Virus record (IMG/VR): IMGVR_UViG_3300032164_000001
Length of the DNA stretch: 64,000 nucleotides
From: a virus
Direction: 5' to 3' (one strand)
The position numbers and the translations under genes were made by a program. Under the pieces are notes generated by a model. That model was not told where the DNA came from. It did no database searches and saw only the letters and a program-made list of their open reading frames with translations. This document shows, in pieces, positions 17,433-53,146 of this stretch. The first letter of the stretch is position 1. Each line of letters begins with the position of its first letter.

Positions 17433-17620
17433 CTGGAGGACACAGAATGCTCATCTTGATCATGTGCTTGCTACTTGCTCTTTCCGTCATCCTGATCGGC
17501 TCACCGGCCTGGAAGAACCCGCCCGTGGGCGTGGGAATGCTGATCGCCGCAGCCGCAGCGGCCGTCTGCATCTACCAGATGCTTGGCCATCGTTAACAGG
17601 CTGCAGGCCTCGTCTGAGGG

Positions 17621-17695
17621 TGCCCGCGGAGGGAGTCGAACCCCCACCCATCTAGCCTCCTTACGGCGTAGTGCTCACCAATGAGCTACGCGGGC
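17621..17695 (-). ncRNA. tRNA-like RNA with a bulged anticodon stem (loop GUAAGGA, nominal anticodon AAG)
   Basis: Acceptor GCCCGCG/CGCGGGC-A; D arm GCTC-ATTGGT-GAGC; T arm GGGGG-TTCGACT-CCCTC; anticodon arm CTA(C)GCC/GGCTAG. Confidence 0.75.
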
Positions 17696-17699
17696 ACAG

Positions 17700-17775
17700 T
17701 GGGGCGGGGAGGAGTTGCACACTCCGACCTCTCTGCCAACGACGACAGAGCGCTCTACTGCTGAGCTACCGTCCC
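17700..17775 (-). ncRNA. tRNA-like RNA with non-canonical anticodon loop and T arm
   Basis: Acceptor GGGACGG/CCGCCCC-A (6/7 paired); D arm GCTC-AGCAGTA-GAGC; CTCTG-10 nt-CAGAG; T arm GGAG(T)G-TGCAACT-CCTCC. Confidence 0.7.
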
Positions 17776-17782
17776 CGAGCGC

Positions 17783-19676: not shown

Positions 19677-19907
19677 CTGCTTGCCCATCGTCGGAGAAGG
19701 GACGTCCATGAAGACGGTGACGATCAGCCTCACAGCGGGCGCTCTTGATGAGCTCCAGAGCTGGCTCCTCATCAAGCAGGTTGCCGGGCACAACGTTGGC
19801 CGTGACTACGACCTGGCGGTTCAAGTGCTGGGGGCCAAGGACGGCGGGAGGGTGGAACTGGCCGGGCGGGATGAGAATCACATGCACAAAAAAGTAGCAT
19901 CTAGTTC

Positions 19908-19936
19908 TTGACAGCAGACTCACTCTTTGCTAAAGT
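19908..19936 (+). promoter_or_regulatory. Promoter for the tRNA-mimic/vWA locus
   Basis: TTGACA-17-TAAAGT, about 40 nt upstream of RNA1. A second extended -10 (TGaTATAAT, 20186-20194) precedes RNA2. Confidence 0.65.
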
Positions 19937-19974
19937 GGTCACTGTTTGCTGGCTGTACCCGAAAAACTGAATAC

Positions 19975-20175
19975 GCCCCGATAGCCTAACGGTAAAGGCA
20001 ATTGTAACTTTCCGCTTGTGCACTCGGGTCAGCACATGAGCCGCATGAGCCCGTGCAGAGGCGTCGTATTTGCAACATGGCTGGGCACATGCTGTCGCCA
20101 GTTGCAGGCTGATCCAATGGCTACAAGCCTACAAGTCGAGACAATCGATTGGGGGTTCGAATCCCTCTCGGGGCG
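19975..20175 (+). ncRNA. RNA1: tRNA scaffold with a 135-nt structured insert replacing the anticodon loop
   Basis: GCCCCGA/TCGGGGC acceptor; GCCT-AACGGTAA-AGGC D arm; ATTGT(20001)/ACAAT(20141) stem; GGGGG-TTCGAAT-CCCTC T arm. Confidence 0.8.
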
Positions 20176-20214
20176 CCTAAAGGTATGATATAATCGCAGT
20201 ATTTCGTAAAATCT

Positions 20215-20350
20215 GGAGCGGTAGCCAAAATGGAAAAGGCACTGGTCAAAGGAACCAGCAAACAGAGCAGCTTCACTACTCGCATCGGATCTCCACCGAC
20301 GCAATGGGTGCAAGCCTACAAGTATGAAGGTTCGAATCCTTCCCGCTCCA
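20215..20350 (+). ncRNA. RNA2: tRNA scaffold with a ~67-nt structured variable region; loop CAAAGGA lacks U33
   Basis: GGAGCGG/CCGCTCC-A; GCC...GGC D arm; CTGGT/ACCAG; GAAGG-TTCGAAT-CCTTC. Confidence 0.8.
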
Positions 20351-20400
20351 CTTGGGTCTTCTCGGTTTCCTCGGTCAGGCCTTACTGGGAGGACCCATCA

Positions 20401-20548
20401 AAGTCTTGAGCAACGTGTAATAGGGAGAAGCAGACAAGTCAATAGCTCAACGGTAGAGCGCAAGACTAATAATCTTGATGTTATCGGTTCAAATCCGATG
20501 TGACGTAGCAAAAAACAGCTTTTCTCACTCGCGCGTTGCTCAAGACTT
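20401..20548 (+). ncRNA. RNA3: Y-RNA (YrlA)-like topology, a long terminal duplex enclosing a tRNA-like domain
   Basis: 20401-20431 pairs with 20518-20548 (18 bp + 4x4 loop + 9 bp). Inside: D arm TAGCTCAACGGTAGAGC, CAAGA-CTAATAA-TCTTG, ATCGG-TTCAAAT-CCGAT, and only a ~4-bp acceptor remnant. Confidence 0.8.
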
Positions 20549-20564
20549 CTTTCATAGGCTCTTG

Positions 20565-20607
20565 AAATGTCACTCGGTCCTTTGTTGGGCCAATAGCCAT
20601 TTGGAGG
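20565..20607 (+). promoter_or_regulatory. 5'-leader hairpin carrying the ACUC/AAUA internal loop, directly abutting the RBS of the vWA gene
   Basis: AAATG-TC-ACTC-GGTCC-TTTGTT-GGGCC-AATA-GC-CATTT-GGAGG; ATG at 20615. Confidence 0.7.
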
Positions 20608-20614
20608 CCGTTAG

Positions 20615-22495
20615 ATGCAATCCATCGAGGCGCTCGGTCCAGCCGAGCGCATCATCGAAGCAATCACCAAGTACACTGATCACTGTCAGCATAATCGTCC
20701 AGGAACCATCGTTCCTGACGCAAGACAGCTTGTTGGCGTGCGCTGGGAGCAGGCCATCTGGTGCAAGGAGGGAGAGGAGAAGGTCGTCTACCGTGTGACG
20801 AAGACCGGGAAGAAGCAGACAAAGGCACGCATCGGTGTACTGGAAGCTGACGGGATGGTGAAGGATGCTGGAGTGGAGGTTGCCCGATGGCGAGAGCCAG
20901 GGCTGTTCCCTGAGGTTGTGGTGCACCTGTACCGGCAAGTGGCAGAGGTCTGGAAGCTCGACAACGAGTTCGCTGCCAGGTGGGCCTCGTGGGCCTTCGA
21001 GCACGAAGAGAACAGGGACCTGAAGATCCTGCTGGCCGCGTTCCTGCTGGTGCAGAATCGCTTCGGGGAGAAAGTTCCAGACTCGACACTGGCTGACGAG
21101 GACTACCGAACTGTTGGTGAGGCCATGTGCCTGCTCCGTCGGAAGACGGGCACCTTCAATCCGAAGATGCTCCTGCGTATCGGCGAGGTGCTGGAGCTGC
21201 CAGGTGTGATTGCAGTCAACCGTGAGCTCGGATTTGGACAGACAGGACGAAGGGCGGTGACCGGCCGGTACCGTGGCACGGTGGAGAAGTGGCTCCGATA
21301 CTACGAGAGCAACCCGGCCGTGCTCGAGATGTTGGTCAAGGCGGGCTTCCGTCGGTCCATCATGCAACTGTGTCGTGTCGTTGGCTACAAGCCAGAGACC
21401 GATGCATTCTTTGCCAAGCTGCGCTGGAAGCAGATTCAGGCGAAGGATGGCCGGCGAGGCATGGCGATCGGAAGTACGCTGACGGCGGCGGAGTCGTGGA
21501 AGGAACTTGATGAAGCGGAGATCTGCAAGCGCATCGTTTCTTCCGGTCTTGGCTGGAAGCGCATCGTGGGCATGCTGCCCTTCGGCGTTACTCCAGCCAT
21601 CATGGCCGCCGCAATCGAGGGGGAGACCCTGAGCGACGCGGACCTCGTCATTCTCACACCAACACTGGAGGAGCTCGGCCTGCTCTCCGTACCGGAGATA
21701 ACGGCACGCTGGAAGAGCGCAACGGAGCGAGCGGAGAACCAACGGGCGGCCCACATTGCACGTAACGTAAAGTCGGAGGCGGTGAAGGAACAGCTGCAGG
21801 TTGCAGTCGAGAAGGCTGTACAGAAGGCCGTCGAAGAGGTGACTCGTGACCTGCGAGTGTATGTTATTGTTGATAAATCCGGTTCGATGCGAGGAGCGAT
21901 CGAGCTGGCGAAGGAGTACCTGGCGAAGATGGTGGTGGCTTTCCCCCTGGACCGGCTGCACGTCTGTGTCTTCAACACCGTCGGGGTGGAAGTACAGATT
22001 CGTGTTCCAACAGCGGCTGGAGTATCTCAGGCATTCCGTGGGCACACGGCCGGCGGAGGTACGAGTTACGCTGCAGGGGCGTGGTGCCTCTTGCGGGACC
22101 ACAAGCCAAGGGAAGGCGAGGATGCACTGTTGATCTTCGTCGGAGACCAGGAGGACAACGGGGTCGAGCAGCTCGTGCAAGTGGTGAAGGGGTCAGGTGT
22201 AGCACCAGTGGCCTTCGGCATGCTACACGTGGCAAGTGCACCGGGAATGCAGCATGGAGGCTGGTACGGCTCGCCGGATGTTGTGGAACGTGCGGCGCAG
22301 GCCCTTGCCATCCCCTGTTTCAAGATAGCGGAGGAGATCTTCTCCGACGCGTACGCAGTGCCACGGACACTACGCAACCTGATTGCATCCACTCCGGTCA
22401 CGCATCCGACAATGCGCAAGACGGCGCCAAAGCGCAAGTCGCTCATCGAACAAATCTTGTCGACGCCACTTCTACAGCGTCCAGTATGGGCGTAG
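20615..22495 (+). CDS. vWA-domain protein with a large helical, basic N-terminal region (TROVE/Ro60-like architecture)
   Basis: MIDAS VIVDKSGSM, GGGTS, IFVGD in the C-terminal ~220 aa. The N-terminal ~400 aa look helical and Arg/Lys/Trp-rich. The Ro-like call is inferred from architecture and RNA neighbours. Confidence 0.7.
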   Translation: MQSIEALGPAERIIEAITKYTDHCQHNRPGTIVPDARQLVGVRWEQAIWCKEGEEKVVYRVTKTGKKQTKARIGVLEADGMVKDAGVEVARWREPGLFPEVVVHLYRQVAEVWKLDNEFAARWASWAFEHEENRDLKILLAAFLLVQNRFGEKVPDSTLADEDYRTVGEAMCLLRRKTGTFNPKMLLRIGEVLELPGVIAVNRELGFGQTGRRAVTGRYRGTVEKWLRYYESNPAVLEMLVKAGFRRSIMQLCRVVGYKPETDAFFAKLRWKQIQAKDGRRGMAIGSTLTAAESWKELDEAEICKRIVSSGLGWKRIVGMLPFGVTPAIMAAAIEGETLSDADLVILTPTLEELGLLSVPEITARWKSATERAENQRAAHIARNVKSEAVKEQLQVAVEKAVQKAVEEVTRDLRVYVIVDKSGSMRGAIELAKEYLAKMVVAFPLDRLHVCVFNTVGVEVQIRVPTAAGVSQAFRGHTAGGGTSYAAGAWCLLRDHKPREGEDALLIFVGDQEDNGVEQLVQVVKGSGVAPVAFGMLHVASAPGMQHGGWYGSPDVVERAAQALAIPCFKIAEEIFSDAYAVPRTLRNLIASTPVTHPTMRKTAPKRKSLIEQILSTPLLQRPVWA

Positions 22496-22498
22496 CAA

Positions 22499-23068
22499 AT
22501 GATTTACAGTCTTATCTTCACACATTGGAGCTATCTCAAATATGTGCTATGGCACAAATACTACGTAGGAGTTGAGTGCTTCAAAGAAGGACTGTGGTGG
22601 CGGGGGTTGAAGCATGACTGGCACAAGTTTCTCCCTTCAGAGTTTCTGCCCTACTCGAACTTCTTCTACGGTCCCAATGGAAAGAACAACACAATCCGGG
22701 ACAAGACTGGTTATTACAAACCTACCGATACAGGCAACAAAGCGTTTGATCGTGCTTGGTTCTGCCATCAGAAAAGAGCGGACCACCATTGGCAGTGGTG
22801 GGTCATGCCCGAAGATACCCAAGGTGTTAAGATTCTTCCCATGAGCGCACCAGCCATTGTGGAAATGATGAGTGATTGGTGCGGGGCTAGCAGAGCCCAG
22901 GGTCACGGTGGTTGGACTAGCCCCTCAGGAGTTTTTGCTTGGTATGCTACCAATGGACACAAGATGCAACTGCATCCGCAGACACGAGCTGTGATAGAAA
23001 TGGCGCTGCGCACAAAAGGAGCTGATAGTTCCAACACCAGATGGGGGTCGGAGAAGAAGCAGGATTGA
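22499..23068 (+). CDS. HD-like (DUF5662-type) protein
   Basis: HKYYV...HDWHKF...AWFCHQKR.DHHWQWW...EMMSDW.GA. Confidence 0.7.
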   Translation: MIYSLIFTHWSYLKYVLWHKYYVGVECFKEGLWWRGLKHDWHKFLPSEFLPYSNFFYGPNGKNNTIRDKTGYYKPTDTGNKAFDRAWFCHQKRADHHWQWWVMPEDTQGVKILPMSAPAIVEMMSDWCGASRAQGHGGWTSPSGVFAWYATNGHKMQLHPQTRAVIEMALRTKGADSSNTRWGSEKKQD

Positions 23069-40205: not shown

Positions 40206-40700
40206 TCAAAAGGCTTTTACAAACTGTTTCAACAAGGAGAAGCGAAAATGAAACTGACAGATGAAACGCGCAAGGAACTGTCGGAAGAGCTGGACAAGCT
40301 ACATGCAGCGATGGGCACACTGGAGGAGGAACTACCCTATGAAGTAGTTGGGGACGATGGCGCCATGGCGTATCTTGCCAACAAAGAAATGATGAAAGAG
40401 TTTGCTGACTCGTTGGAAGAAGGGGGAGTGGATAGCGAGTCGTTCATGCTTGCGGTGAAGGAACTGGTGGCGGAGTGGAAGAAGCTGAATAAGGCAATCG
40501 ACAAACGGGTTGGCGTGTTGCAGAGAGAGACCGCAAAGCTGGAAAAGAAGTTGGAGCTGTAGATTGACGCAGTGCGGCATGAATTCTGGAAGTTGCGGAA
40601 AAATTTGTGGAATTTTGGAGAATGGACAAGTGAAGGGAGAGCTCTCTATCCGCATGGGCTCCGCTACAACTCCACACTCCGCCCCCCACCTCCCACTAGG

Positions 40701-40870
40701 ATAGATCCTATGGGGATCCATCCCATGACGATAGATCCTATGAGATAGATCCTACAAGGATAGATCCTATGAGATCTATCCTAGTAGAATAGATCCTACA
40801 AGGATCCATCCCATGACGATAGATCCTATGAGATAGATCCTATCGAGCTATCCTACCTATCGAGCTACCA
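40701..40870. repeat. Iteron-like ATAGATCCTA x7 cluster
   Basis: Copies at 40701, 40731, 40745, 40760, 40789, 40819 and 40833; 41-bp duplication 40714-40754 / 40802-40842. Confidence 0.85.
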
Positions 40871-41097
40871 TACCGATCGTCGGCTGACATCACCCGACAT
40901 GTGAGAGAAAAAATTCCTCAATGAATTCAACGATGTGCGTTTTTCGAGATCGTATATAATGTCAAAAAATTCATCAATGAAATCGCTGAGTTGCACGCGT
41001 ATCCACATCTCCCGAAATGTACGGCGCTGTAGTTCCTGAATGCAAGTTTCATTCCAGCTTACCAGGGGAAATGGCATGGCGCGTCGAAAAATAGGCC

Positions 41098-43185: not shown

Positions 43186-43277
43186 GTAGGGTATTGCTGA
43201 AGTAGGGTATTGCTGAAGTAGGGTATTGCTGAAGTAGGGTATTGCTGAAGTAGGGTATTGCTGAAGTAGGGCATTGC
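43186..43277 (+). repeat. 16-bp tandem repeat GTAGGGTATTGCTGAA x5 plus a partial copy
   Basis: Perfect head-to-tail copies with no spacers. Confidence 0.95.
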
Positions 43278-49045: not shown

Positions 49046-49930
49046 ATGGCACGAATTGTCACGAGTGTGGCTCAGATTGAGTCACGAGCCGAGCGAGCCG
49101 AACGGCTGCTCGAGTGCAGAGCCGAGTGTGAATGCAATCGGCTCGAACGGGAAGACTTCACCCGTTCGGAAGCCAGAGCCATCATGTCAGCCATGGAGCA
49201 CGATGAGCGTGCACTGCAGGCTGAGCAGAGGGCCGAGAGCAGACGACTCGAGTCGTGGGAGCGAGAGGAAGACAGGCGTGCCGAGTACGAGCTGAGGCGC
49301 TTCACACGCATGCTCAGGACTGCCGTTGCCTTCAACTGGAGTAGCCGGCGGAGCCGGTTACTGCGTATGGCTCGGGCGAAGCGGGCTGAGTACGCTCGTG
49401 CCTACAGGCGCACGTCCGTGTACGTGGTGCGGCCTGGAACTGGAGCCGGAAGCCCAGCATGTCAGCCGAGTGCATCGATCCCGAGTGCATCGATCCCGAG
49501 TGCATCGATCCCGAGTGCATCGATCCCCAAGCCGAGAATGCCGATCACGGGATACAGCTCGGAATACAGCTCGGACTTCTCGATTGCGGATTACACTGCG
49601 TCGAGTAGAGGATCATCCATGGAGGAGAGAGTGATGGACAAACACGACCTCGAGCTGTTGGATGAAGAGCAGCGAGCCGAGCTGAAACTCACCATGTTCG
49701 GGGTGAACGCTCGGAACCGGCCGACGCATGCAACCATGACAGCAGCCGCGCTGTGCTCCTGTCTGGAGACGGCTCCGGGATTCATGCCGCGAGCCGAGTA
49801 CTCGATCGAGAAGTGTGAAGTGCGAATACAGACTGGAACCGCTTCGACTCGCACCGTTCGCGAGATGATGCATTTGGGGAAACCGGGGAAACCGGAGCAC
49901 AAATCGGCTTCGCCGGAACTCAAGTTCTGA
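49046..49930 (+). CDS. Arg/Glu-rich protein with a (PSASI)x4 repeat
   Basis: AAGGAG RBS; flanked by Repeat B copies. Confidence 0.55.
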   Translation: MARIVTSVAQIESRAERAERLLECRAECECNRLEREDFTRSEARAIMSAMEHDERALQAEQRAESRRLESWEREEDRRAEYELRRFTRMLRTAVAFNWSSRRSRLLRMARAKRAEYARAYRRTSVYVVRPGTGAGSPACQPSASIPSASIPSASIPSASIPKPRMPITGYSSEYSSDFSIADYTASSRGSSMEERVMDKHDLELLDEEQRAELKLTMFGVNARNRPTHATMTAAALCSCLETAPGFMPRAEYSIEKCEVRIQTGTASTRTVREMMHLGKPGKPEHKSASPELKF

Positions 49931-52192: not shown

Positions 52193-53146
52193 ATGAAACG
52201 ACTATGGATTGCTTGTTGCCTCGTTGCATGTGGGGAAGGACAGTTGGAGGGCCTGTGGGATGCAACCCTGGCCGATGCGACAGTAGCCGATGCAACCCTG
52301 GACATGAAACTGGTGTCTCCGAAGAGAGTGGACGCGACCACGACCAAGGACAGTCGACGCAAGGATAAGGGCTCGCACGACGCGCCGAAGCCGGACATGG
52401 CGAAGCCTGACATGTTCAAGCCGGACATGGCGAAGCCGGACAAACTTGTATTCAAGCCGGACATGTTCGTGCTCAAGCTGGACACACACAAGCCAGACGT
52501 TAGGTTGCCAGACATGAGACCTCCAGACATGAGACCTCCAGACATGAGACCTCCAGACATGAGAGCTTCAGACACGAGACGGCCTGATACACGTTCGCCG
52601 GATACTCGTCGGCCCGACACTCGTTCTCCTGATACTCGATCTCCGGACACGAGGCGACCTGATACGAGAACTCCGGACACTCGAACTCCAGACACTCGAC
52701 TGCCGGACGACGCAATGCTGCCGGATACGCGCAGACCGGACACGAGAACACCGGATACACGAAAGCCGGACAGCCAGAAGCCACCGATCTGCGGTAACAA
52801 CAAAGCAGAGCCGGGAGAGCAATGCGATGGAACAGACCTGCGGGGAGAGATGTGCCTAACTATGGGCAATCATCTTGCCCATTACCATGGTCCTTTCTTG
52901 CTATGCGACTTGTCGTGTCACTTCTACGTGAAAAACTGCTGGGAGTGCGGCAATGCAAACAAGCCAAATGCAGATCCTGCGACAATGGTGCTCGAGGGCT
53001 ACGAGGAGTGCGAGTTTTCACACGACGCCGTCACGAACAAGGCGGTGACGTTGTGGAAGGACGGCAAGAACACGTGTGCAGCGTGGGGGCTCAAGGGAAC
53101 CAAGTTGTATTGCAAATACTCCGCCTGCCTCGTGTATTGCCTGTGA
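52193..53146 (+). CDS. Lipoprotein with Pro-Asp pentapeptide repeats and a myxobacterial-type Cys-rich domain
   Basis: Lipobox LVAC; roughly 25 PDxxx units (PDMRP, PDTRT); CGNNKAEPGEQCDGTDL. Confidence 0.8.
   Translation: MKRLWIACCLVACGEGQLEGLWDATLADATVADATLDMKLVSPKRVDATTTKDSRRKDKGSHDAPKPDMAKPDMFKPDMAKPDKLVFKPDMFVLKLDTHKPDVRLPDMRPPDMRPPDMRPPDMRASDTRRPDTRSPDTRRPDTRSPDTRSPDTRRPDTRTPDTRTPDTRLPDDAMLPDTRRPDTRTPDTRKPDSQKPPICGNNKAEPGEQCDGTDLRGEMCLTMGNHLAHYHGPFLLCDLSCHFYVKNCWECGNANKPNADPATMVLEGYEECEFSHDAVTNKAVTLWKDGKNTCAAWGLKGTKLYCKYSACLVYCL

What the first reader, a model, noticed from the sequence alone, without database searches (positions are those of the whole stretch)
20565..20617. Fourth copy of the module abuts the vWA gene's Shine-Dalgarno: predicted translational autoregulation
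Seen: hairpin AAATG-TC-ACTC-GGTCC-loop-GGGCC-AATA-GC-CATTT ends exactly at GGAGG (20603-20607), 7 nt before the ATG. Inference: free protein binds its own leader and blocks initiation, while the three ncRNAs titrate it, as in ribosomal-protein feedback loops. This placement independently suggests that the vWA protein is the ligand of the motif.
Basis: partly seen in the sequence, partly recalled or inferred. Interest (0 to 1): 0.8.

Follow-up and report, generated by a model that had tools for sequence, protein, structure and literature searches.

The report
RNA-handle mimic before phage Ro60-like gene
The hairpin just before a huge-phage gene for a Ro60-like RNA-binding protein carries the same small motif as the three tRNA-shaped RNAs next door and folds over the gene's ribosome-binding site; related phages keep this layout, so the protein may control its own synthesis, though no binding has been shown.

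Summary
The stem-loop spans 20565-20602, with ACUC opposite AAUA as an internal loop. GGAGG follows at 20603-20607 and the ATG at 20615.

The same loop-plus-helices pattern occurs three times under strict criteria, all within 19.97-20.6 kb on the + strand. Shuffles give 0.27 per 64-kb strand.

The 626-aa product has no Pfam TROVE hit. Its predicted fold is nevertheless Ro60-like: a helical ring followed by a vWA domain with MIDAS residues.

In 63 distinct related loci from large phages, ACUCG lies 20-60 nt before the start in 21, about nine times background. Half of these are followed directly by a perfect hairpin whose stem sequence differs between loci. The flanks pair more than shuffled flanks do, usually covering the Shine-Dalgarno.

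A model built only from the tRNA-like RNAs' arms recovers eight such leaders. Those RNAs were found only on contigs that encode this protein (13 of 13).

Binding, repression and titration remain untested, and activation is not excluded.

This scan has noted other phage Ro60-like genes with partner RNAs on other DNA, but not this protein family.

The parts
19908..19936 (+). Sigma-70-like promoter (TTGACA, 17 nt, TAAAGT, with TG) ahead of the RNA cluster. It is the likely start of a transcript running into the gene.
   Evidence: No + strand terminator-like site was found between here and the gene, and there is no strong promoter between RNA3 and the ATG.
19975..20175 (+). RNA1: tRNA-like ends with an insert of about 135 nt. 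Module: ACUC 20022-25 opposite AAUG 20116-19.
   Evidence: I5, D1; inner helix 8 bp, outer 7 bp.
20215..20350 (+). RNA2: tRNA-like, with a 65-nt variable-arm insert. Module: ACUC 20278-81 opposite AAUG 20303-06, then GCCUACAAG, then the T arm.
   Evidence: (Rfam tRNA, 43.5 bits, with insertion).
20401..20548 (+). RNA3: tRNA-Ile(AAU)-like core (20436-20507) clamped by a long stem (20401-31 with 20518-48). The stem carries AAUA 20419-22 opposite ACUC 20527-30, so the module is circularly permuted.
   Evidence: (I1; inner 12 bp, outer 9 bp). The same arrangement occurs in L001 and L002.
20557..20609 (+). Leader element: extended hairpin. Outer helix 20565-69 with 20598-602, extended by 20557-63 with 20604-09. 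Internal loop ACUC 20572-75 opposite AAUA 20592-95. Inner hairpin 20576-80 with 20587-91.
   Evidence: It is the best hit of the ncRNA-derived model R1 in 19900-20700 (9.5 bits).
20603..20607 (+). Shine-Dalgarno GGAGG, 7 nt before the ATG. It is predicted to be paired within the extended outer helix.
   Evidence: flank duplex -13.9 kcal/mol, z = -2.85.
20615..22495 (+). Gene for a 626-aa Ro60-like protein. Residues 24-93 form an extra beta domain, about 95-410 a TROVE-like helical ring, and 411-591 a vWA domain with MIDAS residues D420, S422, S424, T483 and D511.
22499..23068 (+). DUF5662 gene, starting 4 nt after the stop and probably co-transcribed. It is not a conserved neighbour in related loci.

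Best explanation
The leader of this phage's Ro60-like gene is a translational operator built as a mimic of the protein's presumed RNA ligands.

The gene appears to be co-transcribed with three tRNA-like RNAs. Each of these carries a 'handle': a helix interrupted by CUC on one strand and an A-rich stretch on the other. The leader carries a fourth handle. Its inner hairpin ends about 21 nt before the start codon, and its outer helix pairs with the Shine-Dalgarno.

Proposed mechanism: free protein binds the leader handle, locks or occludes the ribosome-binding site and lowers its own synthesis, possibly also exposing the mRNA to decay. When the partner RNAs are abundant they occupy the protein and the mRNA is translated.

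Shown here: the anatomy, its conservation and fixed spacing, the predicted SD pairing, the Ro60-like fold, and the exclusive co-occurrence of this RNA family with this protein family.

Inferred: that this protein is the ligand, that the effect is repression, and that the RNAs compete.
For: (1) Exact anatomy, and a motif match above chance.

(2) ACUCG lies at -60 to -20 in 21 of 63 distinct homologous leaders, 9.1 per kb against about 1 per kb elsewhere. The binomial P is 3e-14 if loci are treated as independent.

(3) A perfect hairpin of at least 5 bp starts at the G in 12 of 24 leader-zone ACUCG occurrences, against 5% elsewhere (P = 4e-10). All stems differ in sequence.

(4) In 17 leaders (16 loci plus the window) the hairpin ends 14-30 nt before the start (mean 21, sd 4). 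In the RNAs the same module lies anywhere from about -2400 to +4800.

(5) In the same 17 leaders the flanks are more complementary than shuffled flanks (mean z = -1.27, t = -5.1). In most, the 3' partner includes the SD purines, and the SD has low unpaired probability in about 12 of 20.

(6) Model R1, built only from ncRNA variable arms, recovers 8 leader elements among 36 non-seed hits. Leaders make up 0.5% of the search space. Its best hit in 19900-20700 is this leader.

(7) The element is spread across the protein tree, including L068 at 33% identity. It is present in L115, a locus fetched afterwards.

(8) Fold evidence. In an exhaustive search of 48,161 PDB representatives with the N-terminal model, the top three are the three Ro60 structures (Z 9.3, 9.2 and 7.6; the next hit is 6.5). 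Full-length Foldseek top hits are Ro60/TROVE. The vWA domain scores Z 14.8 and has MIDAS residues. Language-model neighbours are TROVE/DUF2828 clusters.

(9) Every genuine CUCG-hairpin/CCUACAAG/T-arm RNA hit in IMG/VR lies on a contig that encodes this protein (13 of 13). No other protein neighbour is conserved.
Against: No experiment or model shows protein-RNA contact.

The canonical Ro60 determinant (GGUCCGA, or GNCGAA in YrlA, per PMC4201824) is absent, and no Rfam Y RNA or YrlA model matches.

The motif shared family-wide is short: CUC, a G-C closing pair and, less strictly, a following A. The leaders lack the other conserved ncRNA element, YACAAG, which could be the real protein determinant.

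Leaders prefer A before CUC (14 of 17), whereas the RNAs have A in only 12 of 41 at that position.

R1 scores for leaders are low, 9.5-17.5 bits.

The hairpin's stability is ordinary (z = -1.3).

About half the loci lack the element, including a 15-locus clade, two members of which (L044, L060) still carry the RNAs.

Loci are phylogenetically related, so the P values are optimistic.

I found no report of Ro60 autoregulation in the searched literature. Ro60 is reported to pry open the Y RNA helix (PMC12135203, citing Stein 2005), which would predict SD unmasking rather than masking.
Confidence: 0.4

Rival explanations
1. A protein-independent cis element. The leader hairpin simply masks the SD to keep expression low or condition-dependent. 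It could also serve as a 5'-terminal stabiliser once the mRNA is cut away from the upstream tRNA-like RNAs. Its likeness to the RNA handles would then reflect common descent by local duplication.
For: The SD is predicted to be paired. The gene lies at the 3' end of co-directional tRNA arrays (161 T-arm motifs on the + strand, 1 on the - strand), so its mRNA must be processed out of a precursor. No promoter was found between RNA3 and the ATG.
Against: A plain masking or stabilising hairpin needs no invariant CUC-G. Yet that sequence is kept while stems change completely, down to 33% protein identity. The same CUC-G hairpin is the hallmark of the RNAs that co-occur exclusively with this protein.
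Confidence: 0.2
2. The protein does bind the leader handle, but the outcome is not repression. Binding could open the outer helix and free the SD, giving positive feedback or ligand-gated activation. Alternatively it could recruit the mRNA into the particle for processing or decay.
For: The SD is masked in the free RNA in most leaders. Ro60 is described as separating the Y RNA helix on binding (PMC12135203). Ro60/Y RNA particles tether PNPase (PMC4201824, PMC12135203).
Against: There is no direct evidence either way. A bulky ring protein bound 2-12 nt from the SD would more simply occlude the 30S subunit.
Confidence: 0.15
3. The CUC-G handle is recognised by a different factor, which acts on both the tRNA-like RNAs and the leader. 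Candidates are a host or phage RNase, a tRNA-modifying enzyme or an aminoacyl-tRNA synthetase. The Ro60-like protein would then recognise another feature, for example YACAAG or the tRNA-like body.
For: YACAAG and the 13-nt spacing are at least as conserved as CUCG in the RNAs, and the leaders lack YACAAG. These are huge phage genomes with many uncharacterised genes.
Against: Within the flanks examined, no other conserved protein neighbour exists. The RNA family was found only with this protein family.
Confidence: 0.15
4. The element is a separate minimal partner RNA (a YrlB-like 'handle only' RNA) released from the precursor, or a decaying remnant of a fourth RNA gene. Either way it would have no role in translation.
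For: In M. smegmatis, YrlB lies between YrlA and rsr and is processed from one precursor (PMC4201824). Earlier notes of this scan describe a handle hairpin just before other phage Ro60-like genes (e1-5405093, unchecked).
Against: The spacing to the start codon is tight (mean 21 nt, sd 4) and the outer helix pairs with the SD. Releasing it as a separate RNA would remove or cut next to the SD. Conservation across the protein tree argues against a remnant.
Confidence: 0.1

Closest known systems
Ro60/Rsr with Y RNAs (Deinococcus Yrn1/2, Salmonella and Mycobacterium YrlA/YrlB, mycobacteriophages, Thermus phage phiLo Ro60 with Yrl1/Yrl2)
   Same: A ring-plus-vWA protein is encoded directly downstream of several co-transcribed small RNAs that contain tRNA-like D and T arms and share one stem-internal-loop handle. 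The system is phage-borne (PMC4201824, PMC12135203).
   Different: There is no sequence-level TROVE match. The protein has an extra N-terminal beta domain. The handle is CUC opposite an A-rich strand, not GGUCCGA or CGAA. No Rfam match was found. In two of the three RNAs (RNA1, RNA2) the handle is grafted into a tRNA scaffold that keeps its acceptor stem. I found no leader copy or autoregulation reported for any Ro60.
E. coli thrS operator: ThrRS represses its own translation through tRNA-anticodon-arm mimics placed just upstream of the SD (my own knowledge, not checked here)
   Same: This is the logic proposed here. An RNA-binding protein's own leader carries a mimic of its RNA ligand next to the ribosome-binding site, and the free ligand RNAs compete with the leader.
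   Different: The protein family and motif are different. Here the mimic's outer helix itself pairs with the SD. Nothing has been shown experimentally.
Autogenous translational repressors of phages and ribosomal-protein operons (T4 gp32, RegA, gp43; MS2 coat protein-replicase hairpin; r-proteins L1, S8, L20, S15) (my own knowledge)
   Same: A small hairpin or internal-loop operator lies at or beside the SD and resembles the protein's primary RNA site. The result is homeostatic feedback.
   Different: The ligands here would be dedicated tRNA-shaped decoy or partner RNAs encoded immediately upstream on the same transcript.

Membership tests
Ro60 / TROVE protein family | Sequence match to the TROVE domain (Pfam PF05731) or to solved Ro60 sequences | tested here: not met
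   Pfam gives only sub-threshold vWA hits. phmmer and a 38-sequence profile against PDB sequences find no Ro60. There is no PHROG or NCBIfam match.
Ro60 / TROVE protein family | Helical-repeat ring fold followed by a vWA domain, in that order | tested here: met
   The N-terminal model (pLDDT 85) was compared with 48,161 PDB representatives. The top three are 2nvo (Z 9.3, 257 aa), 9l5y (Z 9.2) and 1yvp (Z 7.6, 293 aa); the next hit is Z 6.5. Full-length Foldseek top hits are Ro60/TROVE over 516-592 columns, though TM is only about 0.3. The vWA domain scores Z 14.8. A Z near 9 for a helical repeat is modest, so this shows fold-level likeness only.
Ro60 / TROVE protein family | MIDAS motif in the vWA domain | tested here: met
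   D420, S422, S424, T483 and D511 are invariant in 38 homologues.
Y RNA / YrlA | Match to Rfam Y RNA or YrlA covariance models | tested here: not met
   Only tRNA hits appear, even at E up to 10 on the 691-nt region.
Y RNA / YrlA | Ro60-binding motif GGUCCGA or GNCGAA(N)G in the stem (PMC4201824) | tested here: not met
   The shared motif is (A)CUC-G...C-AAUR. No CGAA-type motif is shared by the four copies.
Y RNA / YrlA | tRNA-like D and T arms, encoded next to the Ro60 gene | tested here: met
   Rfam tRNA hits of 56 and 43 bits, T-arm repeats, and the same strand directly upstream. The RNA family was found only on contigs with the protein.
Autogenous translational operator by ligand mimicry | A cis element in the protein's own mRNA that resembles its RNA ligand | tested here: met
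   The same loop and helices occur in RNA1-3. The ncRNA-only model R1 finds leaders in 8 other loci and ranks this leader first in its region. That the RNAs are the protein's ligands is itself inferred.
Autogenous translational operator by ligand mimicry | The element overlaps or abuts the ribosome-binding site | tested here: met
   The stem ends at 20602 and the SD is at 20603-07. The SD is predicted to be paired. Spacing is conserved and flank-SD complementarity holds across 17 leaders.
Autogenous translational operator by ligand mimicry | The protein binds the element and lowers its own translation | not testable with these tools
   Needs EMSA, toeprinting or reporter assays. The RNA-seq route was unavailable.

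The most novel reading that the evidence does not exclude
A deeply diverged, huge-phage branch of the Ro60 world uses a portable RNA handle (CUC opposite an A-rich strand, between two helices). The handle is grafted into tRNA scaffolds and also into the protein's own leader, where it masks the Shine-Dalgarno. The level of free ring protein would then be set by how much partner RNA is available. This would be the first autoregulatory circuit described for any Ro60-type protein.
Probability: 0.35. Interest if true: 0.72.

Novelty: new variant of a known kind. Interest (0 to 1): 0.6.

Why it matters
What bacterial and phage Ro60 particles do remains poorly understood.

Here a compact, conserved operator sits next to dedicated partner RNAs. 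Together they give a defined, easily mutated RNA site and a simple read-out (leader-reporter expression). That would allow direct tests of whether this protein family binds the handle, which nucleotides matter, and whether the tRNA-shaped RNAs act as competitors.

If it holds, it extends ligand-mimicry feedback, known from ThrRS, ribosomal proteins and T4 and MS2 proteins, to the Ro60 family. It would also suggest that large phages tune an RNA-surveillance or tRNA-related particle to their own tRNA-array output.

It also flags a protein family with more than 2,000 database relatives that current domain libraries label only 'vWA'.

Tried and rejected
- Rfam, at the gathering threshold and at E up to 10: only tRNA hits, no Y RNA or YrlA.
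- Sequence searches of the protein (Pfam, PHROGs, NCBIfam, PDB by phmmer and by profile, and one distant relative against PDB): nothing beyond weak vWA hits.
- Foldseek with the N-terminal domain alone: no hit at E <= 0.001. Ro60 entries were present but mixed with armadillo repeats. The exhaustive VIA search was clearer.
- The VIA re-ranking of the full-length model was swamped by vWA domains.
- MAFFT plus RNAalifold on 17 leaders gave no structure, because stem lengths differ. I used anchored scans, flank-duplex tests and a covariance model instead. The 100% pairing in alignment A4 is by selection and is not evidence.
- Terminator reading rejected: no U tract follows the hairpin and no + strand terminator-like site was found.
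- Conserved protein partner: none. DUF5662 and the other neighbours are absent from related loci.
- Micro-evolution test: three near-identical strains showed no change in the leader, so it was uninformative.
No whole genome is held for this window.
- The palindrome at the start of the CDS (20629-50) was considered as a further regulatory hairpin. Many homologues whose Leu, Ala or Glu codons differ (e.g. CUA, GCA, GAA) lose it, so codon choice for the invariant LGPAE motif explains it.

Full report
**Observation.** The sequence reads exactly as described. The parts are AAAUG 20565-69, UC, ACUC 20572-75, GGUCC 20576-80, a 6-nt loop, GGGCC 20587-91, AAUA 20592-95, GC and CAUUU 20598-602. GGAGG follows at 20603-07, then seven bases, then ATG at 20615. 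An in-frame TAG lies just before the ATG.

ViennaRNA returns this hairpin as the minimum-energy and centroid fold. It extends the outer helix so that 20557-63 pairs with GAGGCC at 20604-09, which includes most of the Shine-Dalgarno. The unpaired probability of the central SD bases is 0.06-0.28. The energy itself is not unusual (z = -1.3).

What is unusual is the motif. I scanned for ACUC opposite AAUR between an inner and an outer helix of at least 5 bp each. The scan finds three places in 64 kb: RNA1, RNA3 (circularly permuted) and the leader. All are on the + strand within 600 nt, and the - strand has none. Shuffles give 0.265 per strand. RNA2 has the same loop with one inner-helix mismatch.

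**Surroundings.** A sigma-70-like promoter at 19908-36 precedes three tRNA-like RNAs.
- RNA1 (19975-20175) has tRNA-like ends and a large insert.
- RNA2 (20215-20350) scores 43.5 bits on the Rfam tRNA model, with a 65-nt variable-arm insert.
- RNA3 is a tRNA-Ile(AAU)-like core (20436-20507, 56 bits) clamped by a 31-nt stem.

No + strand terminator and no strong promoter separates RNA3 from the gene. The leader is therefore most likely part of a processed polycistronic transcript.

**The protein.** The 626-aa product has only sub-threshold vWA hits in Pfam. It has no sequence match to Ro60 in PDB, PHROGs or NCBIfam.

Fold evidence points the other way.
- The full-length AlphaFold model (pLDDT 78) has TROVE/Ro60 structures as its top Foldseek hits over 516-592 columns.
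- The N-terminal 410 residues, modelled alone (pLDDT 85), were compared exhaustively with 48,161 PDB representatives. The three Ro60 structures rank first: 2nvo Z 9.3, 9l5y Z 9.2 and 1yvp Z 7.6. The next hit is Z 6.5.
- The C-terminal vWA domain scores Z 14.8, and its MIDAS residues are invariant.
- Language-model neighbours are TROVE and DUF2828 clusters, at lead level only.

I therefore treat it as a deeply diverged Ro60-like protein with an added beta domain at residues 24-93. It is not a demonstrated family member by sequence.

The family is large. More than 2,000 relatives of about 625 aa were found, mostly on phage contigs of 100-600 kb.

**Is the leader element conserved?** I fetched 71 IMG/VR loci, 63 of them distinct, and set start codons by ORF and SD.
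- ACUCG lies on the coding strand 20-60 nt before the start in 21 of 63 loci. That is 9.1 per kb against about 1 per kb everywhere else (P = 3e-14 if loci were independent).
- In 12 of 24 leader-zone occurrences, a perfect hairpin of at least 5 bp begins at the G. Elsewhere the figure is 5%.
- The stems have unrelated sequences, which is covariation by inspection.
- In 17 such leaders (16 loci plus the window) the hairpin ends 14-30 nt before the start (mean 21, sd 4).
- In the same 17 leaders, the segment 5' of CUC and the segment 3' of the hairpin are more complementary than shuffled flanks (mean z = -1.27, t = -5.1). The 3' partner usually contains the SD purines.
- On a protein tree the element is scattered through most clades, including the outlier L068 at 33% identity. 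It is missing from one 15-locus clade and from loci where an HNH gene has been inserted just upstream.
- L115, fetched later for another reason, also has ACUCG, a hairpin, UCA, AGGAG, seven bases and AUG.

**Is it the same module as in the RNAs?** Related loci carry a clear RNA family with this order of parts: N-CUC-G, a 6-bp stem, usually a GNRA or UNCG tetraloop, the return strand, about 13 nt, YACAAG, a short spacer and a T arm. I found 42 distinct examples.

An exact-pattern scan of IMG/VR for this architecture returned 43 stretches. The genuine RNA-like ones lie on 13 contigs, and all 13 encode the protein. No other protein neighbour is conserved.

A covariance model built only from 25 such RNA arms (A4, R1) recovered eight leader elements among its 36 non-seed hits. 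Leaders make up 0.5% of the sequence searched. Its best hit in 19900-20700 is the leader hairpin itself, though at only 9.5 bits.

Across the family the shared part is short: CUC, a G-C-closed hairpin and, in most copies, a following A. Leaders lack YACAAG and favour A before CUC more than the RNAs do. The full ACUC/AAUR identity of all four copies is a feature of this phage.

**Mechanism.** The best-supported reading is an operator by ligand mimicry. The Ro60-like protein binds the handle in its partner RNAs and in its own leader. In the leader, the handle's outer helix is the SD-masking helix, and binding stabilises or occludes the site. Known Ro60 systems also have several partner RNAs encoded just upstream and processed from one precursor (PMC4201824, PMC12135203). 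I found no report of Ro60 autoregulation.

I put this reading at 0.4. No contact is shown, the canonical Ro60 motif is absent, and the direction of the effect is open. Ro60 is described as separating the Y RNA helix (PMC12135203), which would unmask the SD.

The rivals are:
- a protein-independent masking or stabilising hairpin (0.2);
- binding with activation or decay as the outcome (0.15);
- recognition of the handle by another factor (0.15);
- a separate minimal RNA or a remnant (0.1).

**Relation to earlier notes.** First-stage notes on this genome had already proposed the Ro60-like reading and the shared loop. I tested both here. Follow-ups on other genomes describe phage Ro60-like genes with different 'handle' RNAs, one with a hairpin just before the gene. 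A look-up by sequence found no earlier report on this protein family in another genome.

**Verdict.** It is a new variant of a known regulatory logic, attached to a protein-RNA system that appears undescribed. All P values assume independent loci and are therefore optimistic.

Noticed in passing
L008, L015, L022, L028, L032, L036, L041, L046 (about -100 to -1 of the gene): A second conserved leader type. It has CGGUGUA, a further hairpin, and AGAUCGGAU 8-17 nt before the ATG in place of a normal SD. In four of these loci (L022, L036, L041, L046) a CUCG motif lies further upstream, followed by a clear hairpin in L036, L041 and L046. The eight loci listed are eight of the nine assigned to this type in the tree.
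   Followed up: partly
L018, L036, L041, L046, L048, L035 (about +4.3 to +4.8 kb from the gene start): The CUCG-hairpin/YACAAG/T-arm RNAs also occur downstream of the gene. They often come as tandem pairs in which the second member lacks the hairpin.
   Followed up: partly
window 20629-20650: An 8-bp palindrome (GCGCUCGG, 5-nt loop, CCGAGCGC) lies at codons 6-12, encoding the invariant ALGPAER. It shares CUCGGUCC with the leader. Many homologues with other synonymous codons lose it, so codon choice probably explains it.
   Followed up: partly
L004, L009, L021, L027, L057, L063; P0077: HNH-type ORFs are inserted immediately upstream of the gene in several loci, replacing the leader. One homologue of 1043 aa carries an intein/homing endonuclease.
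   Followed up: no
L029, L044, L050 (-120 to -1): Leaders of one clade carry two or three copies of UUUUCACGAA and a GUACAAGG-like box instead of the CUCG hairpin. This may be separate transcriptional control.
   Followed up: no
window 40700-40879: An iteron-like array of GATAGATCCTAT(G/C)A units (period 15 and 44, about 10 copies). It could be an origin or a binding-site cluster.
   Followed up: no
window 43186-43277, 49466-49527, 52259-52708: Several exact or near-exact tandem repeats with periods of 15-16 nt. The 15-nt ones may be pentapeptide repeats in coding sequence.
   Followed up: no
window 20615-20900 (residues 24-93): The protein has an N-terminal all-beta domain that aligned to nothing in the Ro60 structures. 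Its fold and role were not examined separately.
   Followed up: no
window 17618-17780 (- strand): Two further tRNA-like genes lie downstream of a Pth2-like ORF; ARAGORN calls only one of them (Leu-AAG). A Pth2-like ORF also lies upstream of the homologue in L060.
   Followed up: no
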